A DNA stretch of 64,000 bases from Candidatus Moanibacter sp. (GCA_965215885.1 CBDCEW010000105.1:320001-384000), one strand, 5' to 3'; shown: positions 2,118-23,044, counted from the stretch's first letter. The notes: generated by a model from the letters alone, not told the origin. Numbers and translations: made by a program.

Positions 2118-2372
2118 GCTTGTTTTTTTCTTTTCGATCGCTTCTTTTCCAATGATCAACCAACCCCTACGAGTCGAGTATATCAGGATCGCGGTTAAAA
2201 ATAGGGGCAGGCCCGTGATGTAAACGAGATAGGCACTCAATGTCCTAATTTTTTCCCATTCTGTCGGCTCAAACATCAAAATGGCCACCCCCATCGCGAA
2301 AATGCAGACATAGAGGCCGAAAAACAGATTCTCCGCTGGCGAAACATGTCTGTGTTCTGTTCCGGACTTCAT
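2112..2372 (-). CDS. Hypothetical two-TM membrane protein (cassette)
   Basis: Fills the cassette between core site 2384-2390 and its attC; two hydrophobic segments. Confidence 0.65.
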   Translation of the reverse strand: MKSGTEHRHVSPAENLFFGLYVCIFAMGVAILMFEPTEWEKIRTLSAYLVYITGLPLFLTAILIYSTRRGWLIIGKEAIEKKKTST

Positions 2373-2442
2373 GGAATCTCGCTACCTAACGTTAAAGCGC
2401 TAAGACGGCGGCACCTGCCGCCGTTCTAAGGAGCGTCTGGTT

Positions 2443-3357
2443 GTGTGCCGGGCAGGACCGACTGCTTAATGGTGAAGTTAACGTCAGAAGGAAATGACAC
2501 ATGAAGTAAACAAAGTCCAGACCCAGCCCGATGGAGGCGAAGGGTAGCCGATGGCAAGAGTATCGCAGCGATGAGGGCTCGAAGGAAGCTGGAGGCAAAG
2601 ACGCGTGCTGACGAACAGGTATGCCCCGCACCGGAAACGGTGGAGGGCAGGCAGATGAGGCGAGGGAAGACTGGGACGAGCCTGCAACACAAGATGAAGT
2701 CCTCTATCCATCAGAGAGTTGACCCGCGTATATCTGACGGTGGTGCGTCGAAAGTAGTCGGAATGACCCCGGGAGAGCCGCTATGTCTCCTGATTTTCAG
2801 GAGTGAGCAACCCGCAAGGGAAGCCTACCGCATAGGGGCAGTCAGCAGCCTGTCCTCCGAAGCTCGGAGAGCGAAGGACGGGAGGGCATAAGAGTCGTAG
2901 GAAACGAGCCGGGAGTAGTCGCCGACGGGAAACCCGTCCGACGACGAATCCGGAGGACTCACCCCGACAAAGGCCCGAACGGTGCCTGTGTCGAAGGGCA
3001 CAGGTAAATGAGAGTGGCAAGTAGGAAGAGCGACTAATGAACTCATTGCAGCAGTCCAGCTCAGAAGAGTTTGTTGCGTCGCGAATATCCAAAAGCCCGA
3101 CAGGACGGATCCGGCTCCTGGAGAGTATCCCGGAGCGGAAGAACATGCAGCACGCGCTGCACTTTGCCCGCTACGTCGACGACTGTGTCATCTTCGTCCG
3201 AAGCGAGCGAGCAGGGAAACGGGTAATGAAATTTCCAGTCATTCGGGAGCGTCTTCCCCTGGACCCGATCCTGCCTGATCAGCCGAACCGCCACTTACGG
3301 ACCCGTACGAGTGGTGGTGTGGGAGGGGCGCCCCGCGAGGGGCGTCCCTATCCCGAT
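2443..3357 (+). mobile_element. Group IIC (attC-targeting) intron, ORF-deleted, copy 1
   Basis: 5' GTGTG; short class C domain V GAACCGCCACTTACGGACCCGTACGAGTGGTGGTGTGGGAGG; 3' CCCTATCCCGAT; RT remnant HFARYVDDCVIFV. Confidence 0.92.
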
Positions 3358-3899
3358 GTGTGCCGGGCAGGACCGACTGCTTAATGGTGAAGTTAACGTC
3401 AGAAGGAAATGACACATGAAGTAAACAAAGTCCAGACCCAGCCCGATGGAGGCGAAGGGTAGCCGATGGCAAGAAGCATCCCACGGGAGTGGGATGCTAC
3501 GAAGAATCCGGAGGACTCACCCCGACAAAGGCCCGAACGGTGCCTGTGCCGAATGGCACAGGTAAATGAGAGTGGCAAGTAGGAAGAGCGACTAATGAAC
3601 TCATTGCAGCAGTCCAGCTCAGAAGAGTTTGTTGCGTCGCGAGTATCCAAAAGCCCGACAGGACGGATCCGGTTCCTGGAGAGTATCCCGGAGCGGAAGA
3701 ACATGCAGCGCGCGCTGCACTTTGCCCGCTACGTCGAGGACTGTGTCATCTTCGTCCGAAGCGAGCGGGGAGGGAAACGGGTGATGAATTCCCATCATTC
3801 GGGCTCGTCTTCCCCTGGACCCGATCCTGCCTGAGCAGCCGAACCGCCACTTACGGACCCGTACGAGTGGTGGTGTGGGAGGGGCGTCCCTATCCCGAT
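3358..3899 (+). mobile_element. Group IIC intron, further reduced, copy 2 (head-to-tail with copy 1)
   Basis: Same 5' end and domain V; RT remnant HFARYVEDC; large deletion in the 5' ribozyme domains and shortened domain VI. Confidence 0.9.
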
Positions 3900-3930
3900 A
3901 TACCTCCAATTCGGTAGCCCTGTTCTGAAA

Positions 3931-4745
3931 TCAATCCCGATTAGCCTCGATCCACCCTACAGCGAAGTCGACTAGTTCGCATTGTGGAAAGAGAACCGAT
4001 ACAGCGTAGCCCACTTTGCCTCGAACGACTTGGTTTGATGCACTTTCGTATGCCTGCCCAATCTGTGGAAAGTCATCCGAGCATGAGTCAATGTCCGAAA
4101 ACTCGGTCCAATAGGTGGCTCCGTCTCGGGAGATGGGCGCTCCATGCCTTACTATTTGTTTGGATGCGAAGCTTGCCCGAAACTCCGCCAGATGAAGCGA
4201 GGAATTGGAATCGTGTCCCACACCGATCAAAAGAACGCTTCCTCCACTTTCGTAGACCCTCGCCAGCGGCGATTGCTCGCCAAACGAACTTTCCAAAGCG
4301 TGGTCGCTGGTTACAAAGTCAGCTCTTGGACCGGAAGCAGCAAATGAAACGTGGGGGTGGTTGCTGCGCACCACGCTGTCCGCGCCTCGAAAGCACTCAG
4401 GGATTGCGCCCATACCCCGTGTGGGAGTGAACGGTCAAACGCCGGCATTGTTCGACGTATTGTTGGCCACCAAGTCGGATCGACTGGAGGATTACTCCAT
4501 CCTGCAGGATCGGTTAGGCCGCCCGAGTGAGTGGGCATTACCAATGTTCCCTTTGGTCCAAGTGCGCTTAGGAGAGCGTTGACGACCGCCACGGGACCGC
4601 CGGCGACCCAGCCGATCGAGCTGAGAGACGAGTGAACCAGCAAGGTCATACCATCCGTTACTCCCAGTTGGGTCAAGTCGCACACGAGGCGGTCCTGAAT
4701 GACCGGACCCGCGATCGAGTTACTGATGACATCTCGCTCAGTCAC
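3931..4745 (-). pseudogene. AAC(3)/YokD-family N-acetyltransferase, frameshifted near 4430 (cassette)
   Basis: LLVHSSLSSIGWVAGG..GTLVMPTH in one frame; TPTRGMGAIPECFR..RSNHPHVSF..NSSLHLAE in another; GTG at 4745. Confidence 0.85.
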
Positions 4746-4767
4746 TGAAGACCCTTTAATCCTGTAC

Positions 4768-4830
4768 GTATAACGATCGGTCTCACACGCGGCGGCGTTA
4801 GCCGGCGTTGTGTGAAGACACTGGTTATGC
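4768..4830 (-). other. attC site (cassette 2)
   Basis: Minus strand GCATAAC...GTTATAC, 63 bp, contains the higA stop. Confidence 0.9.
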
Positions 4831-5136
4831 CTTCGCCGTGGCCATAGAATGAACCTCCGATGCAATCTTCTTTCCGACCTCCCGCTCGGCCACTTCGAGA
4901 TCGTGTTCTCCTTGAAGCCCAACCCAGAATTCCGCCGTAGTCCCAAAGTATCTTGAGAGCCGCAAGGCGGTTTCAGCCGTAATCGATCGACGACCTTTTA
5001 CGATTTCAGTGATGCGCGAGGCCGGAATTCCGGTTTCGCGTGCCAACTGAGCTTGGGTTAGGCCCATCGGCTTGATGAACTCTTCGAGGAGGATCTCCCC
5101 CGGAGGAATAGTTGGTAAGCGATTTTTCTGCTTCAT
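4825..5136 (-). CDS. higA: HigA family antitoxin
   Basis: PGEILLEEF..LTQAQLA..ITAETALRLSRYFGTTAEFW HTH; ATG at 5136. Confidence 0.93.
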   Translation of the reverse strand: MKQKNRLPTIPPGEILLEEFIKPMGLTQAQLARETGIPASRITEIVKGRRSITAETALRLSRYFGTTAEFWVGLQGEHDLEVAEREVGKKIASEVHSMATAKA

Positions 5137-5141
5137 TGTGG

Positions 5142-5423
5142 TCAGTGGTAATCTATGATTCGGGCTTCTCGGACGGTTCCTTCCTTCCAGCGGAAAAGGA
5201 TTCTCCATTGGTCGTTGATTCGGATACTCCAGTGTCCCCGCAAATTGCCCCGCATTGCCTCCAGTCGGTTTGCTGGCGCAATCCTGAGATCCCGAAGTTC
5301 TCTCGCCTGATTCAGCATGCGCAGTTTTCGACGCGCACGATGCTGGATGTCATCCGGCAATCGGGTGGAGCGGATTCCCTGGTATACCTTTTTCGTCTCG
5401 CCATCACCGAATGATTCAATCAC
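5142..5423 (-). CDS. higB: HigB family toxin (plasmid maintenance killer)
   Basis: MIESF..NRLEAM.G...G.WSIRINDQWRI.F..DYH. Confidence 0.93.
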   Translation of the reverse strand: MIESFGDGETKKVYQGIRSTRLPDDIQHRARRKLRMLNQARELRDLRIAPANRLEAMRGNLRGHWSIRINDQWRILFRWKEGTVREARIIDYH

Positions 5424-7124: not shown

Positions 7125-7938
7125 ATGAAAATCGTGCATTTCCCGCGCTGGGCGGAGATCCTGGAGCGTTCTGATGTCGACTCCCGTACGAGAGAATTCT
7201 ATCTCATTACCATCCGCTGGTATCTATCATGGTGTACGAAGGCAGGGCTCGCAGCAACTAATCGATCCGCCCAGGAATTTGTCGAGTGGGCTGCTCGCGA
7301 GAGATCCTCATCTGAAAGGACCGTAGCGCGATGGAAAGAGGCAATTCGCTGGTTTTTCGCCAACGGTGAGCGAAGGGAGATTCCAACCGATGGATTTGGA
7401 GCGGGGTCAGGTCGTTGTTCGATGCGGGAAGGGCGACAAAGACCGGATAGCTCCAATGCTAAAAGTTCTGGAAAAGGAGCTTAGAACGCATATGGATCAA
7501 CTGGCTGAGACGTTCGAATCTGATCGGGCGAGGCATCTTCCAAGAGTCTTCCTTCCGGGCGGCCTTGAGCGCAAATTCCCAAGGGCAGGGATCGAATGGG
7601 CATGGCAGTGGTTCTGGCCCAGCCGGGAACTCAGCATCGACTCAAGGAGTGGGATTAAGCGCCGGCACCATGTGCAACCGAACCACAATCAAGCCGCAAT
7701 CAAGCGTGCGGCACAAAATGCCGGCATCGGGAAGAGAGTGACCAGCCATGCCCTCCGCCACTCATTCGCCACGCACCTGTTCGAAGGCGGGGTGGATATC
7801 CGCACCGTTCAGGATTTATTGGGCCATGCGCATATCGAAACCACGCAGATCTATCTGCATGTAATGACTAAGCCCGGTGCGGGTAGTCTCAGCCCCTTGG
7901 ATCTGATGGCGTATTGTGCCGAAGGGAAAGAAATGTAA
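7125..7938 (+). pseudogene. intI: Integron integrase, internally deleted and out of frame
   Basis: GKGDKDR, integron insertion [39 protein letters not shown] present; core-binding domain and box I Arg absent; frame change near 7385. Confidence 0.9.
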
Positions 7939-22208: not shown

Positions 22209-23044
22209 CAGTGTGCGAGTTCCATGTCGGCACGGGGTATGGTGTTGGTGAATCGATAAACAAACATCGTAACATCCCAAATTTCCTTTTCGGTGAGAAA
22301 TTTCTCCCAGGTCGGCATGGCGGAACTCCAGGGACCCGACTCGTCAGGGAGACCCGGTCCCCCTTTTGCGATTCGCCAGAATACGTAATTTTCCTGTAGT
22401 TGGGCGATGGTGCCGGAGTCGGCCAGATTGGCCGGAATGGGGTTAAACCCATGAGCAAAGAGACCGTTCCCTTCGAGCGTATCACCGTGACAGAAAACAC
22501 AGTTGTCATAGTAGACTTTACGCCCGTTTTGGACGTGCTTCATGAATTCGTCCGGATTCTCGACTTCCAGTTTTCGATACGGATTCTCGAAATCCGCGAG
22601 TTGGATTTGCTTCCCATCAAACGTAAACTGGGTGGGTGGAGCGGGGTGAATGGAGCGACCGAACACGGGCGCAACAATCTCAACCTGCATTCCGGCATAG
22701 ACTCTCCAGGCGACGAAGAGGGGAAGGAGAATAGTGACCAGGGTAAGTGGAATTCTAAACTTTCTGTTTACGATAAACTGGGTCAGAGAACCCGTAACTT
22801 CCTTCAGAATTCCTGTATCTGAGGAGATGAAAAAGAGCAGGGCAATTGTGATGATTGCCATGAACATCTGGACGATAGAGGCTGGGAGAGGCGGGATGAT
22901 TGAGAATCTTAAGATAACGAATAGTCCAATCCACCATGCCACGATCCAGAAGAGAACATTCATCCAAAATGGGCTTCGGGTCTTTCCATAAATGGAGAGG
23001 GCGACCATCACGCCTACAACACTGGCGAGGATAATGAGATTCAT
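22208..23044 (-). CDS. Membrane-anchored monoheme cytochrome c
   Basis: Four N-terminal TMs; CVFCH; PWSSAMP axial Met. Confidence 0.88.
   Translation of the reverse strand: MNLIILASVVGVMVALSIYGKTRSPFWMNVLFWIVAWWIGLFVILRFSIIPPLPASIVQMFMAIITIALLFFISSDTGILKEVTGSLTQFIVNRKFRIPLTLVTILLPLFVAWRVYAGMQVEIVAPVFGRSIHPAPPTQFTFDGKQIQLADFENPYRKLEVENPDEFMKHVQNGRKVYYDNCVFCHGDTLEGNGLFAHGFNPIPANLADSGTIAQLQENYVFWRIAKGGPGLPDESGPWSSAMPTWEKFLTEKEIWDVTMFVYRFTNTIPRADMELAH

What the first reader, a model, noticed from the sequence alone, without database searches (positions are those of the whole stretch)
2443..3899. Head-to-tail twin of ORF-deleted group IIC introns inside one attC
Seen: two introns (915 and 542 bp) joined with no spacer (CCCGAT|GTGTG) on the attC bottom strand; removing both restores R''. 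Both share the same junction fusing the IEP N-terminus (LLESIPERKNMQ) directly to the RT5 motif (RYVDD/RYVED), so the ORF was lost before the copies separated. Known: IIC-attC introns target attC bottom strands. Inference: a non-autonomous mini-intron lineage mobilised in trans, with repeat homing or multimer insertion.
Basis: partly seen in the sequence, partly recalled or inferred. Interest (0 to 1): 0.7.

Follow-up and report, generated by a model that had tools for sequence, protein, structure and literature searches.

The report
Two gutted copies of a self-splicing mobile intron sit nose to tail inside one recombination site of a bacterial gene-cassette array, and the same nose-to-tail joint turns out to be common in environmental DNA, which points to introns repeatedly re-entering sites that are already occupied.

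Summary
Window 2443-3357 (915 nt) and 3358-3899 (542 nt) are two group II intron derivatives joined head to tail without a spacer. They lie on the bottom strand of one attC of a chromosomal integron. Both carry the same protein-gene remnant, with RT0 fused to RT5 and the rest lost.

- Copy 2 is also ribozyme-dead. It lacks 381 nt of domain I and beyond.
- The same RT0|RT5 junction is in 25 of 32 fetched public protein clusters and in a second genome (G006), so this is an old, dispersed ORF-less lineage.
- The exact 3'-end|5'-end joint occurs in 83 metagenome stretches, with full-length and ORF-less units.
- Neither G000 nor G006 holds an intact cognate reverse transcriptase.

The best explanation is a second retrohoming into the occupied site. 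The attC hairpin and IBS1 stay intact, and the resident intron's first G serves as IBS3 opposite a candidate EBS3 uridine. This mechanism was shown experimentally in 2025 for a IIB1 intron.

Trans-mobilisation is inferred, not shown, and reads could not confirm the joint. I rate it a new variant of a known kind, of moderate interest.

The parts
2373..2442 (+). 5' exon. This is the attC bottom-strand hairpin, with the R' box at 2375-2381 (ACCTAAC on +, GTTAGGT on the cassette strand). It ends in the IBS1-like TGGTT (2438-2442), whose GTT is the first half of R''.
   Evidence: Sequence. The DNA fold gives an imperfect hairpin of -16.2 to -16.5 kcal/mol that is unchanged when the intron start follows it.
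2443..3357 (+). Copy 1. An ORF-less group IIC-attC-type intron with a complete ribozyme (5' GUGUG, domains I-VI, 3' AU).
2562..2762 (+). Domain I core of copy 1, matched by Rfam RF02001.
   Evidence: 59.3 bits, E 2.4e-09 and 6.5e-11.
2731..2731 (+). Candidate EBS3 uridine (copy 1 nt 289, in CGUA[U]AUCUGA).
   Evidence: It is U in 9 of 9 relatives of the GTT|R type and A in 6 of 6 relatives inserted at TTTGT|T. It is the only fixed U-to-A difference listed. This is an inference by covariation, not a structural proof.
3037..3231 (+). Remnant of the intron-encoded protein in domain IV of copy 1: start codon, RT0, then RT5. The RT0|RT5 junction is at 3159|3160.
   Evidence: BLASTP to P0001: 82% over residues 8-41 and 75% over residues 38-65.
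3287..3318 (+). Domain V of copy 1 (CGC triad with a G-U pair, 2-nt bulge).
   Evidence: RNAalifold on 22 sequences, with compensatory pairs.
3320..3355 (+). Domain VI of copy 1, with a bulged UA before the last helix.
3358..3899 (+). Copy 2. It has the same lineage and the same ORF junction, but lacks the domain I core.
3358..3474 (+). First 117 nt of copy 2, identical to the first 117 nt of copy 1.
   Evidence: 117 of 117.
3475..3498 (+). 24-nt hairpin standing in place of copy 1 nt 118-498. It corresponds to the variable stem-loop that precedes GAATCCGGAGG in other copies.
   Evidence: The identical hairpin is in G006 (L030).
3595..3789 (+). Protein remnant of copy 2, with the RT0|RT5 junction at 3717|3718.
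3843..3874 (+). Domain V of copy 2.
3876..3897 (+). Shortened domain VI of copy 2 (tip of 14 nt missing).
3900..3930 (+). 3' exon. ATAC is the second half of R''. The stop of the upstream cassette gene (3931-4413, - strand) follows.
7125..7938 (+). Integron integrase gene, read in two overlapping frames (7125-7484 and 7366-7938). It faces away from the cassettes and defines the array.
   Evidence: TIGR02249 at 214.8 bits, below its cut-off of 265, for the second frame only.

Best explanation
The 1457-nt block is two members of an old, dispersed, ORF-less lineage of attC-targeting group IIC introns. They were inserted one after the other at the same point of one attC.

Shown:
- Both are group II intron derivatives on the attC bottom strand.
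- Both carry the same RT0|RT5 fusion.
- Copy 1 keeps a full ribozyme and the 5' part of domain IV.
- Copy 2 has lost the domain I core.

Inferred mechanism: IIC introns read their target almost wholly upstream of the insertion point, through a DNA hairpin plus 3-4 nt of IBS1. Only one nucleotide downstream (IBS3) is read. After a first insertion, the hairpin and TGGTT are untouched, and the nucleotide after the insertion point becomes the resident intron's G1. This clade inserts at GTT|R and carries a candidate EBS3 uridine, which can pair with A or wobble with G. An occupied site therefore remains a target. The later copy lands upstream of the earlier one with no spacer, so copy 1 would be the later arrival.

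The reverse transcriptase must have come from a full-length relative in trans. None is intact in this assembly now, so the pair is probably a fossil. The copies have since been reshaped by deletion and by recombination or gene conversion.
For: Identity and context.

Lineage:
- The same junction is in G000 copy B (C105:316901-319486).
- It is in G006 copies at 89-92% DNA identity sitting in different attC sites.
- It is in 25 of 32 fetched protein clusters. A further 6 of 32 carry an apparently older state, with the 19 N-terminal residues kept and 3 more residues at the junction.

Recurrence of the joint:
- The 20-mer across the joint is in 83 metagenome stretches, giving 76 distinct junctions.
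- Only 9 of 78 loci have exact terminal overlaps that could be circular-assembly effects.
- 14 loci show a non-intron 5' flank, then a complete unit, then the next unit. 10 show a complete unit after a joint followed by a 3' flank.
- 8 of 33 complete units next to a joint are under 1000 nt.
- Full-length|full-length pairs lie in 4.4 and 5.9 kb contigs.
- 9 of 21 comparable neighbour pairs differ in sequence.

Target rule:
- Among 25 non-tandem 3' ends found through the protein rather than through the joint, position +1 is A 12, G 4, T 6, C 3. All six T belong to the 59-62%-identity clade inserted at TTTGT|T.
- The candidate EBS3 is U in 9 of 9 versus A in 6 of 6.
- Of 49 units in tandems with the motif found, 45 have U, 3 G, 1 C and 0 A.

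Precedent: the EcKTE56.groEL IIB1 intron integrates in tandem through an EBS3(U)-IBS3(G1) wobble. The rate was 22.4% of integrants for the ORF-deleted form against 4.2% for the full-length form (PMC12584367, passages read).

Domain IVa, the high-affinity protein-binding site that lies at the start of the ORF, is the part that engineered ORF-deleted introns retain (same paper). The natural remnant keeps that region.
Against: - No intact cognate reverse transcriptase was found in G000. The only RT genes are C92 (33% identity to P0001) and C37 (35%).
- None was found in G006 either. Its best copies are one in two frames and one lacking residues 1-169.
- Copy 2 cannot reverse-splice by itself, so at least one of the two did not arrive in its present form.
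- Copies group by genome, not by form. Copy 2 is 97.8% like copy B and 95.9% like copy 1 in the 3' part, yet 117 of 117 like copy 1 at the 5' end. The G006 mini is closest to other G006 copies. Recombination has therefore blurred the history, and the order of arrival cannot be read from the sequence.
- The EBS3 assignment is a correlation between two clades that differ at many other positions. Copy B and a G006 copy have G at that position.
- EBS1 could not be pinned down by covariation.
- Four degenerate copies have C at +1.
- L100 may be a tandem in the other clade; this was not followed up.
- The joint in this very contig was not bridged by any laid contig. Only Logan contigs were on offer, and the best (X3, record 19) reaches 30 nt past the joint, one short of the tool's criterion.
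Confidence: 0.6

Rival explanations
1. Single-event multimer insertion. During target-primed reverse transcription, the reverse transcriptase reached the 5' end of one intron RNA and switched to the 3' end of a second intron RNA. One insertion event thus laid down a head-to-tail cDNA concatemer.
For: The joints are exact, and they join unlike units as well as like ones (9 of 21 pairs differ). The abstract of PMC3683930 (search listing) says group II intron reverse transcriptases have a proclivity for template switching.
Against: No test here separates this from re-homing. Template switching often adds extra nucleotides (recalled, not from a call), yet all joints found were by design exact, because the search pattern required it. 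The link between tandems and U at the candidate EBS3 is not predicted by this model.
Confidence: 0.12
2. Local duplication and decay. One inserted ORF-less intron was duplicated in place by unequal exchange or replication slippage. One copy then lost its domain I core.
For: The first 117 nt are identical. 12 of 21 neighbour pairs in metagenome tandems are identical over the part that can be compared. In L158 an 838-nt unit shares its first 300 nt exactly with the full-length unit next to it.
Against: - The 3' 320 nt of copy 2 are closer to copy B, 4 kb away (97.8%), than to copy 1 (95.9%).
- The same core deletion with the identical 24-nt hairpin is in G006 at another attC, so it did not arise here.
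- An exact intron-end to intron-start joint by slippage would need a repeat at the two ends. Only a single T is shared, yet the same exact joint recurs 76 times.
Confidence: 0.13
3. Assembly artefact. The two copies lie at different attC sites and were threaded together through the shared 117-nt repeat.
For: The genome is a 105-contig draft with 5.47% contamination. The intron family has at least six copies or fragments in it. No laid contig bridges the joint by the tool's criterion.
Against: - A graph assembler needs words that span CCCGAT|GTGTG, and those must exist in the reads.
- The unique 3' end of copy 1 (long domain VI tip) runs straight into the joint.
- The same joint is seen in 83 independent metagenome stretches and in one genome contig, L037.
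- In a run from another study, a contig covers 3003-3387 across the joint at about 97% identity.
Confidence: 0.05
4. The pair works as one composite intron. The 5' splice site and ribozyme of copy 1 can use either of two domain V/VI modules, so there are two alternative 3' splice sites. The ribozyme-dead copy 2 is carried, spliced and moved as the tail of a 1457-nt unit.
For: - Both domain V/VI modules are intact by covariation.
- An intron with repeated domain V/VI modules and alternative 3' splice sites is known: C.te.I1 (review PMC4424553, passages read).
- The core-less form exists in two genomes at different attC sites although it cannot move by itself.
Against: No second instance of the same copy-1-type plus mini pair was found. 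In G006 the mini stands alone. There are no RNA data. Spread of the deletion by recombination between copies explains the same facts.
Confidence: 0.08

Closest known systems
Group IIC-attC introns (S.ma.I2 type) of integrons
   Same: Insertion is into the bottom strand of attC at the R'' box, opposite to cassette transcription. The hairpin is read in place of IBS2. The ends are 5' GUGYG and 3' AY, and the protein lacks an endonuclease domain (PMC3001079 and PMC7923331, passages read; window).
   Different: The published consensus is TTGT/T (IBS1/IBS3) (PMC7923331). This clade sits one nucleotide further on, at (T/G)GTT|R. The two copies here have no working protein gene and stand in tandem.
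Tandem integration of the IIB1 intron EcKTE56.groEL in E. coli (Mob DNA 2025, PMC12584367)
   Same: The second copy enters between the 5' exon and the first copy, giving an exact 3'-end|5'-end joint. That paper explains it by EBS3(U) wobbling with the resident G1, and finds it more frequent for ORF-deleted introns.
   Different: That is a laboratory result for another intron class with a long sequence-specific target at groEL. Here it is a natural, widespread pattern in hairpin-targeting IIC introns, with unlike and degenerate units. The EBS3 is inferred only.
ORF-less bacterial group II introns served in trans by a related intron's protein
   Same: The ribozyme is kept, the protein gene is lost, and remnants of the gene remain (review PMC4424553).
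   Different: The review calls such introns rare in bacteria and says they nearly always share a genome with a related protein-coding intron. Here the lineage is in 25 of 32 fetched clusters, and neither genome examined holds an intact cognate protein.
Twintrons and the nested intron arrays of Methanosarcina acetivorans
   Same: There are repeated cycles of homing into DNA already occupied by introns, balanced by deletions through recombination (PMC4424553).
   Different: Those are nested, with one intron inside another. Here the units abut end to end, and neither interrupts the other.
C.te.I1 of Clostridium tetani (repeated domain V/VI modules, alternative 3' splice sites)
   Same: One domain I-III set is followed by more than one domain V/VI module (PMC4424553).
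   Different: In C.te.I1 the repeats serve different downstream reading frames. Here the second module belongs to a separate degenerate intron copy, and no coding exon follows on this strand.

Membership tests
Group II intron (ribozyme) | 5' GUGYG and 3' AY termini | tested here: met
   Both copies begin GTGTG and end GAT.
Group II intron (ribozyme) | Domain V: about 34 nt, catalytic triad with a G-U pair, 2-nt bulge | tested here: met
   The consensus fold of 22 sequences has invariant A-U, C-G, G-U and C-G pairs at the base and compensatory changes above them. Both window copies fit.
Group II intron (ribozyme) | Domain VI helix with a bulged adenosine near the 3' end | tested here: met
   A bulged UA lies 7-8 nt from the end. 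The helix is supported by compensatory pairs. In copy 2 the helix is shortened but kept.
Group II intron (ribozyme) | Domain I core | tested here: met
   Met for copy 1 only: RF02001 at 59.3 bits over 2562-2762. Not met for copy 2, in which copy 1 nt 118-498 are represented only by a 24-nt hairpin.
Group IIC-attC introns | Inserted in the attC bottom strand at R'', opposite to the cassettes | tested here: met
   Four other family copies in G000 also follow attC-like hairpins.
Group IIC-attC introns | Insertion at the consensus TTGT/T | tested here: not met
   Here it is TGGTT|A. Close relatives use (T/G)GTT|A or G, while the 59-62% clade uses TTTGT|T.
Group IIC-attC introns | Protein belongs to the monophyletic attC subset of class C | not tested
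   No tree with named reference proteins was built. Only similarity to P0001-like proteins (RVT_1 + GIIM) was shown.
Autonomous retroelement | Intact reverse transcriptase/maturase gene in domain IV | tested here: not met
   Residues 60-254 and 283-455 of the P0001 frame are absent from both copies.
Tandem integration by EBS3(U)-IBS3(G1) wobble | Exact joint between the intron 3' end and the next intron's G1 | tested here: met
Tandem integration by EBS3(U)-IBS3(G1) wobble | EBS3 is a uridine | tested here: inconclusive
   The candidate position 2731 is U and covaries with the +1 nucleotide between clades. No secondary-structure model placed it in the coordination loop.
Twintron | One intron nested inside another | tested here: not met
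   The units abut and neither is interrupted.
Circularly permuted group II RNA | Domains V-VI precede domain I within one RNA, with the excised segment between them and no protein gene | tested here: not met
   Each unit has the normal domain order, and there is no sequence between the 3' end and the next 5' end.

The most novel reading that the evidence does not exclude
A sub-clade of attC-targeting IIC introns that inserts at GTT|R with a uridine at EBS3 treats occupied attC sites as perpetual homing sites. It thereby builds head-to-tail arrays. Within such arrays a second tier of parasite has evolved: units that have lost not only the reverse transcriptase but also the ribozyme core, like copy 2. 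These survive and spread as the tail of a composite intron, spliced from the 5' splice site of a competent upstream neighbour to their own domain V/VI. Such an element would need both the protein and the catalytic RNA from others.
Probability: 0.15. Interest if true: 0.75.

Novelty: new variant of a known kind. Interest (0 to 1): 0.5.

Why it matters
[quoted passage not shown] It describes attC introns as single insertions. Here one ORF-less lineage with a fixed deletion junction is found in 25 of 32 fetched public protein clusters and in two genomes. End-to-end intron arrays are frequent in environmental DNA.

If re-homing into occupied sites is the cause, a one-nucleotide change in target reading (EBS3 U instead of A, insertion one base further on) turns a single-hit element into an array builder. 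That can be tested directly with existing mobility assays.

For integrons, each such insertion adds 0.5-2 kb inside R''. This is likely to affect whether that cassette can still be excised, and what is transcribed towards its neighbours.

Tried and rejected
- Reads. Only Logan contigs were available. In four runs (X1-X4) no listed piece bridges 3357|3358 with 31 letters on both sides. The best, X3 record 19, covers 3003-3387. This neither confirms nor refutes the joint.
- Rfam at E up to 1 on 2300-4000 gave nothing for copy 2, and no domain V/VI family hit for either copy.
- EBS1. The loop GAGC-NNN-CCGC always offers RRC opposite GTT, but its next position does not covary with exon position -4 (T, G or C) in 16 introns. 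EBS1 therefore stays unassigned.
- Helper in the genome. PF08388 and PF00078 scans and tblastn with P0001 found only two distant reverse transcriptases plus remnants.
- Phylum sample. Among 400 other genomes, none matched contiguously across the junction. Only two candidates per genome were scored, and G006 was not in that sample.
- Earlier notes of this scan: nothing.
- Literature. Six full-text searches found no report of natural tandem IIC-attC introns or of an ORF-less IIC-attC lineage. Key subscription or non-CC papers were not held (Leon and Roy 2009 RNA; Robart 2007 PNAS; Simon 2008 RNA), so a prior description there cannot be excluded.
- Protein-level selection on the remnant was rejected. 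Between copies 1 and 2 I count by eye about five amino-acid changes against two silent ones. Its conservation is better read as RNA (domain IVa).

Full report
WHAT IS THERE

Window 2443-3899 holds two copies of one repeat family on the + strand. Copy 1 (2443-3357, 915 nt) and copy 2 (3358-3899, 542 nt) each begin GTGTG and end CCCGAT. They abut without a spacer.

Copy 1 is a group II intron:
- Rfam RF02001 matches 2562-2762 at 59.3 bits, against a gathering score of 32.
- Its last 71 nt fold into domains V and VI, as do those of copy 2.
- In an RNAalifold consensus of 22 relatives, 12 of 28 pairs keep pairing through changes on both sides. The base of domain V has the invariant C-G, G-U, C-G triad.

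THE PROTEIN REMNANT

The ORFs at 3037-3384 and 3595-3834 are remnants of the intron-encoded protein. I compared them with a full-length 455-aa relative (P0001, RVT_1 + GIIM).
- Residues 8-41 match P0001 residues 26-59 (82-85% identity).
- Residues 38-65 match P0001 residues 255-282 (72-75% identity).
- RT0 is thus fused to RT5 at the same codon in both copies (3159|3160 and 3717|3718).
- The C-terminal 173 residues and 19 N-terminal residues are also missing.

CONTEXT

- The flanking cassette ORFs are on the - strand.
- A gene matching the integron integrase model TIGR02249 (214.8 bits, profile positions 139-314 of 315) lies at 7366-7935 on the + strand. Its N-terminal part is in another frame, 7125-7484.
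- The introns therefore sit on the attC bottom strand, antisense to the cassettes, as described for group IIC-attC introns (PMC3001079, passages).
- The 5' flank folds into an imperfect hairpin and ends in TGGTT.
- GTT before the pair and ATAC after it together give an R'' box matching 6 of 7 consensus positions. R' at 2375-2381 matches 7 of 7.

Copy 2 also lacks copy 1 nt 118-498. That span includes the whole Rfam-matched core of domain I. Only a 24-nt hairpin remains (3475-3498), which corresponds to the variable stem-loop that precedes GAATCCGGAGG in other copies. Copy 2 also lacks 14 nt of the domain VI tip. It cannot be a self-sufficient ribozyme.

A FAMILY, NOT A LOCAL ODDITY

In the same genome (G000, 105 contigs, 90.3% complete) there are four more members:
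- Copy B, just upstream of the window (C105:316901-319486), has the same RT0|RT5 junction and is interrupted by an insertion sequence.
- Three smaller derivatives (C105:315751 onwards, C80:62820-63105, C2 near 22526-22900) have other deletions.

All follow attC-like hairpins.

Among 40 related genomes, only G006 (same family, another genus) has long matches. It holds:
- two copy-1-type ORF-less copies at 89% identity;
- one copy-2-type unit at 92% identity, with the identical 24-nt hairpin and the same ORF junction, in a different attC.

In the 5.8-billion-protein collection, 34 short proteins match the remnant. Of the 32 I fetched:
- 25 carry the same direct junction;
- 6 carry what looks like an older state, with the 19 N-terminal residues kept and three more residues at the junction;
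- 1 is other.

One of them (P0016) reads across a tandem joint. The lineage is therefore old, dispersed and progressively reduced. In an even sample of 400 other genomes of the phylum, none matched contiguously across the junction (two candidates scored per genome).

NO HELPER AT HAND

- G000 encodes only two reverse transcriptases, 33% and 35% identical to P0001, plus remnants.
- In G006 (96% complete, 3 contigs) the best cognate copies are one split over two frames and one lacking residues 1-169 and domains V/VI.
- Full-length relatives at 74-79% protein identity exist in many environmental genomes.

THE JOINT IS COMMON ELSEWHERE

A 20-mer spanning 3'-end|5'-end occurs in 83 metagenome stretches, which give 76 distinct junctions.

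Of the 78 loci read:
- 9 have exact terminal overlaps of 41-425 nt, which might reflect circular assembly of a repeat;
- 14 show a non-intron 5' flank, then a complete unit, then the start of the next unit;
- 10 show a joint, then a complete unit, then a 3' flank.

Of 33 complete units next to a joint, 25 are 1865-2150 nt (full length) and 8 are 642-996 nt. L173 and L186 show full-length|full-length pairs in 4.4 and 5.9 kb contigs. Of 21 neighbour pairs whose 5' parts can be compared, 12 are identical and 9 differ.

Among 26 intron 3' ends found through the protein rather than through the joint, 1 is a tandem (L037).

MECHANISM

The literature gives TTGT/T as the usual IIC-attC site (PMC7923331, passages).
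- The 59-62% clade in my sample (L091-L098) fits that: TTTGT|T.
- The window's clade inserts one base further on, at (T/G)GTT followed by A (12) or G (4). C occurs three times, in two degenerate G006 copies (L030) and in L036.

In an alignment of domain I, the only fixed U-to-A difference between the two groups is copy 1 nt 289 (window 2731, CGUA[U]AUCUGA). It is U in 9 of 9 and A in 6 of 6. I take this as the candidate EBS3. A uridine there would accept A, and by wobble G. This includes the G1 of a resident intron.

Among units in tandems where the motif was found, 45 have U, 3 G, 1 C and none A. The motif was not found in 15.

This is exactly the explanation given, with experiments, for tandem integration of the IIB1 intron EcKTE56.groEL. 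In that work tandems made up 22.4% of integrants for the ORF-deleted form and 4.2% for the full-length form (PMC12584367, passages).

The assignment here is a correlation between clades that differ at many positions. Copy B and a G006 copy carry G at that position. EBS1 could not be fixed.

HISTORY OF THE TWO COPIES

- The copies are 117 of 117 identical at the 5' end.
- Over the 3' 320 nt, copy 2 is 97.8% like copy B and 95.9% like copy 1.
- The G006 mini is closest to other G006 copies, at 96.6%.

Forms thus do not group together; genomes do. This argues for recombination or gene conversion among resident copies, or for long co-residence. It argues against a simple local duplication. It also means the order of arrival cannot be read from divergence.

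COMPARISON WITH KNOWN SYSTEMS

The pair works like a IIC-attC insertion, and the tandem works like the 2025 groEL-intron tandems. It fails the TTGT/T site rule of classical IIC-attC introns. I did not place the protein in a tree with named class C references. It is not a twintron, because the units are not nested. It is not a circularly permuted group II RNA (PMC8637638, passages).

A review states that bacterial ORF-less introns are rare and nearly always share a genome with a related protein-coding intron (PMC4424553, passages). This lineage departs from both statements in the data seen here.

Six literature searches found no report of natural IIC-attC tandems or of an ORF-less IIC-attC lineage. 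Three key papers were not held.

VERDICT

- It is a new variant of a known kind.
- Interest is 0.5.
- The weakest points are the unconfirmed joint in this particular assembly and the lack of any functional test of trans-mobilisation.

Noticed in passing
window 7125-7938 (+): The integron integrase gene is read in two overlapping frames (7125-7484 and 7366-7938). Only the second matches TIGR02249, and it scores below that model's cut-off. The gene may be a pseudogene, or the split may be a sequencing error.
   Followed up: partly
window 3931-4946 (-): The cassette gene next to the intron pair matches aminoglycoside 3-N-acetyltransferase (NF033082). It is split over two overlapping frames, covering profile positions 3-90 and 96-261.
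   Followed up: partly
G000:C105:317197-318835 (L004/L002), just upstream of the window: An insertion sequence of about 1.6 kb with terminal inverted repeats interrupts domain I of intron copy B, right after the candidate EBS3 motif.
   Followed up: no
G000:C105:319393-319427; C80:63025-63058; C2 near 22600; G006 L030; one Logan contig of run X1: Several family copies carry an insertion of about 35 nt, itself a hairpin, in the terminal loop of domain V. Full-length relatives and the two window copies lack it. The sequence varies between genomes, and a longer version is in C105:315890-315980. A loop insertion at this spot would be expected to disturb docking of domain V, yet it recurs.
   Followed up: partly
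G000:C105:315940-315960 and 317565-317585: A short palindrome (TCCCGCTCAGCGGGA) recurs inside an intron fragment and inside the insertion sequence. It also resembles the insertion sequence's terminal repeats.
   Followed up: no
window 4825-5423 (-): This cassette holds a HigA-family antitoxin (TIGR02607, 99.8 bits) and an upstream small toxin-like ORF. Toxin-antitoxin cassettes are common in chromosomal integrons.
   Followed up: no
L100:1000 onwards: The intron 3' end is followed by GTACGCCCGGCA, which looks like a diverged intron 5' end. This may be a tandem in the clade that otherwise inserts at TTTGT|T.
   Followed up: no
L035, L039, L041, L044 and others, about 340 nt into the intron: Most full-length relatives carry an extra segment of about 165 nt in a domain I stem. 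Copy 1, the G006 copies and some full-length introns (L131, L143) lack it.
   Followed up: no
L114 and L163 (40 kb and 11.9 kb metagenome contigs): Both hold the exact 20-mer joint but show no other BLAST similarity to copy 1 or P0001 within 2.5 kb. They may belong to a more distant intron group with the same termini.
   Followed up: no
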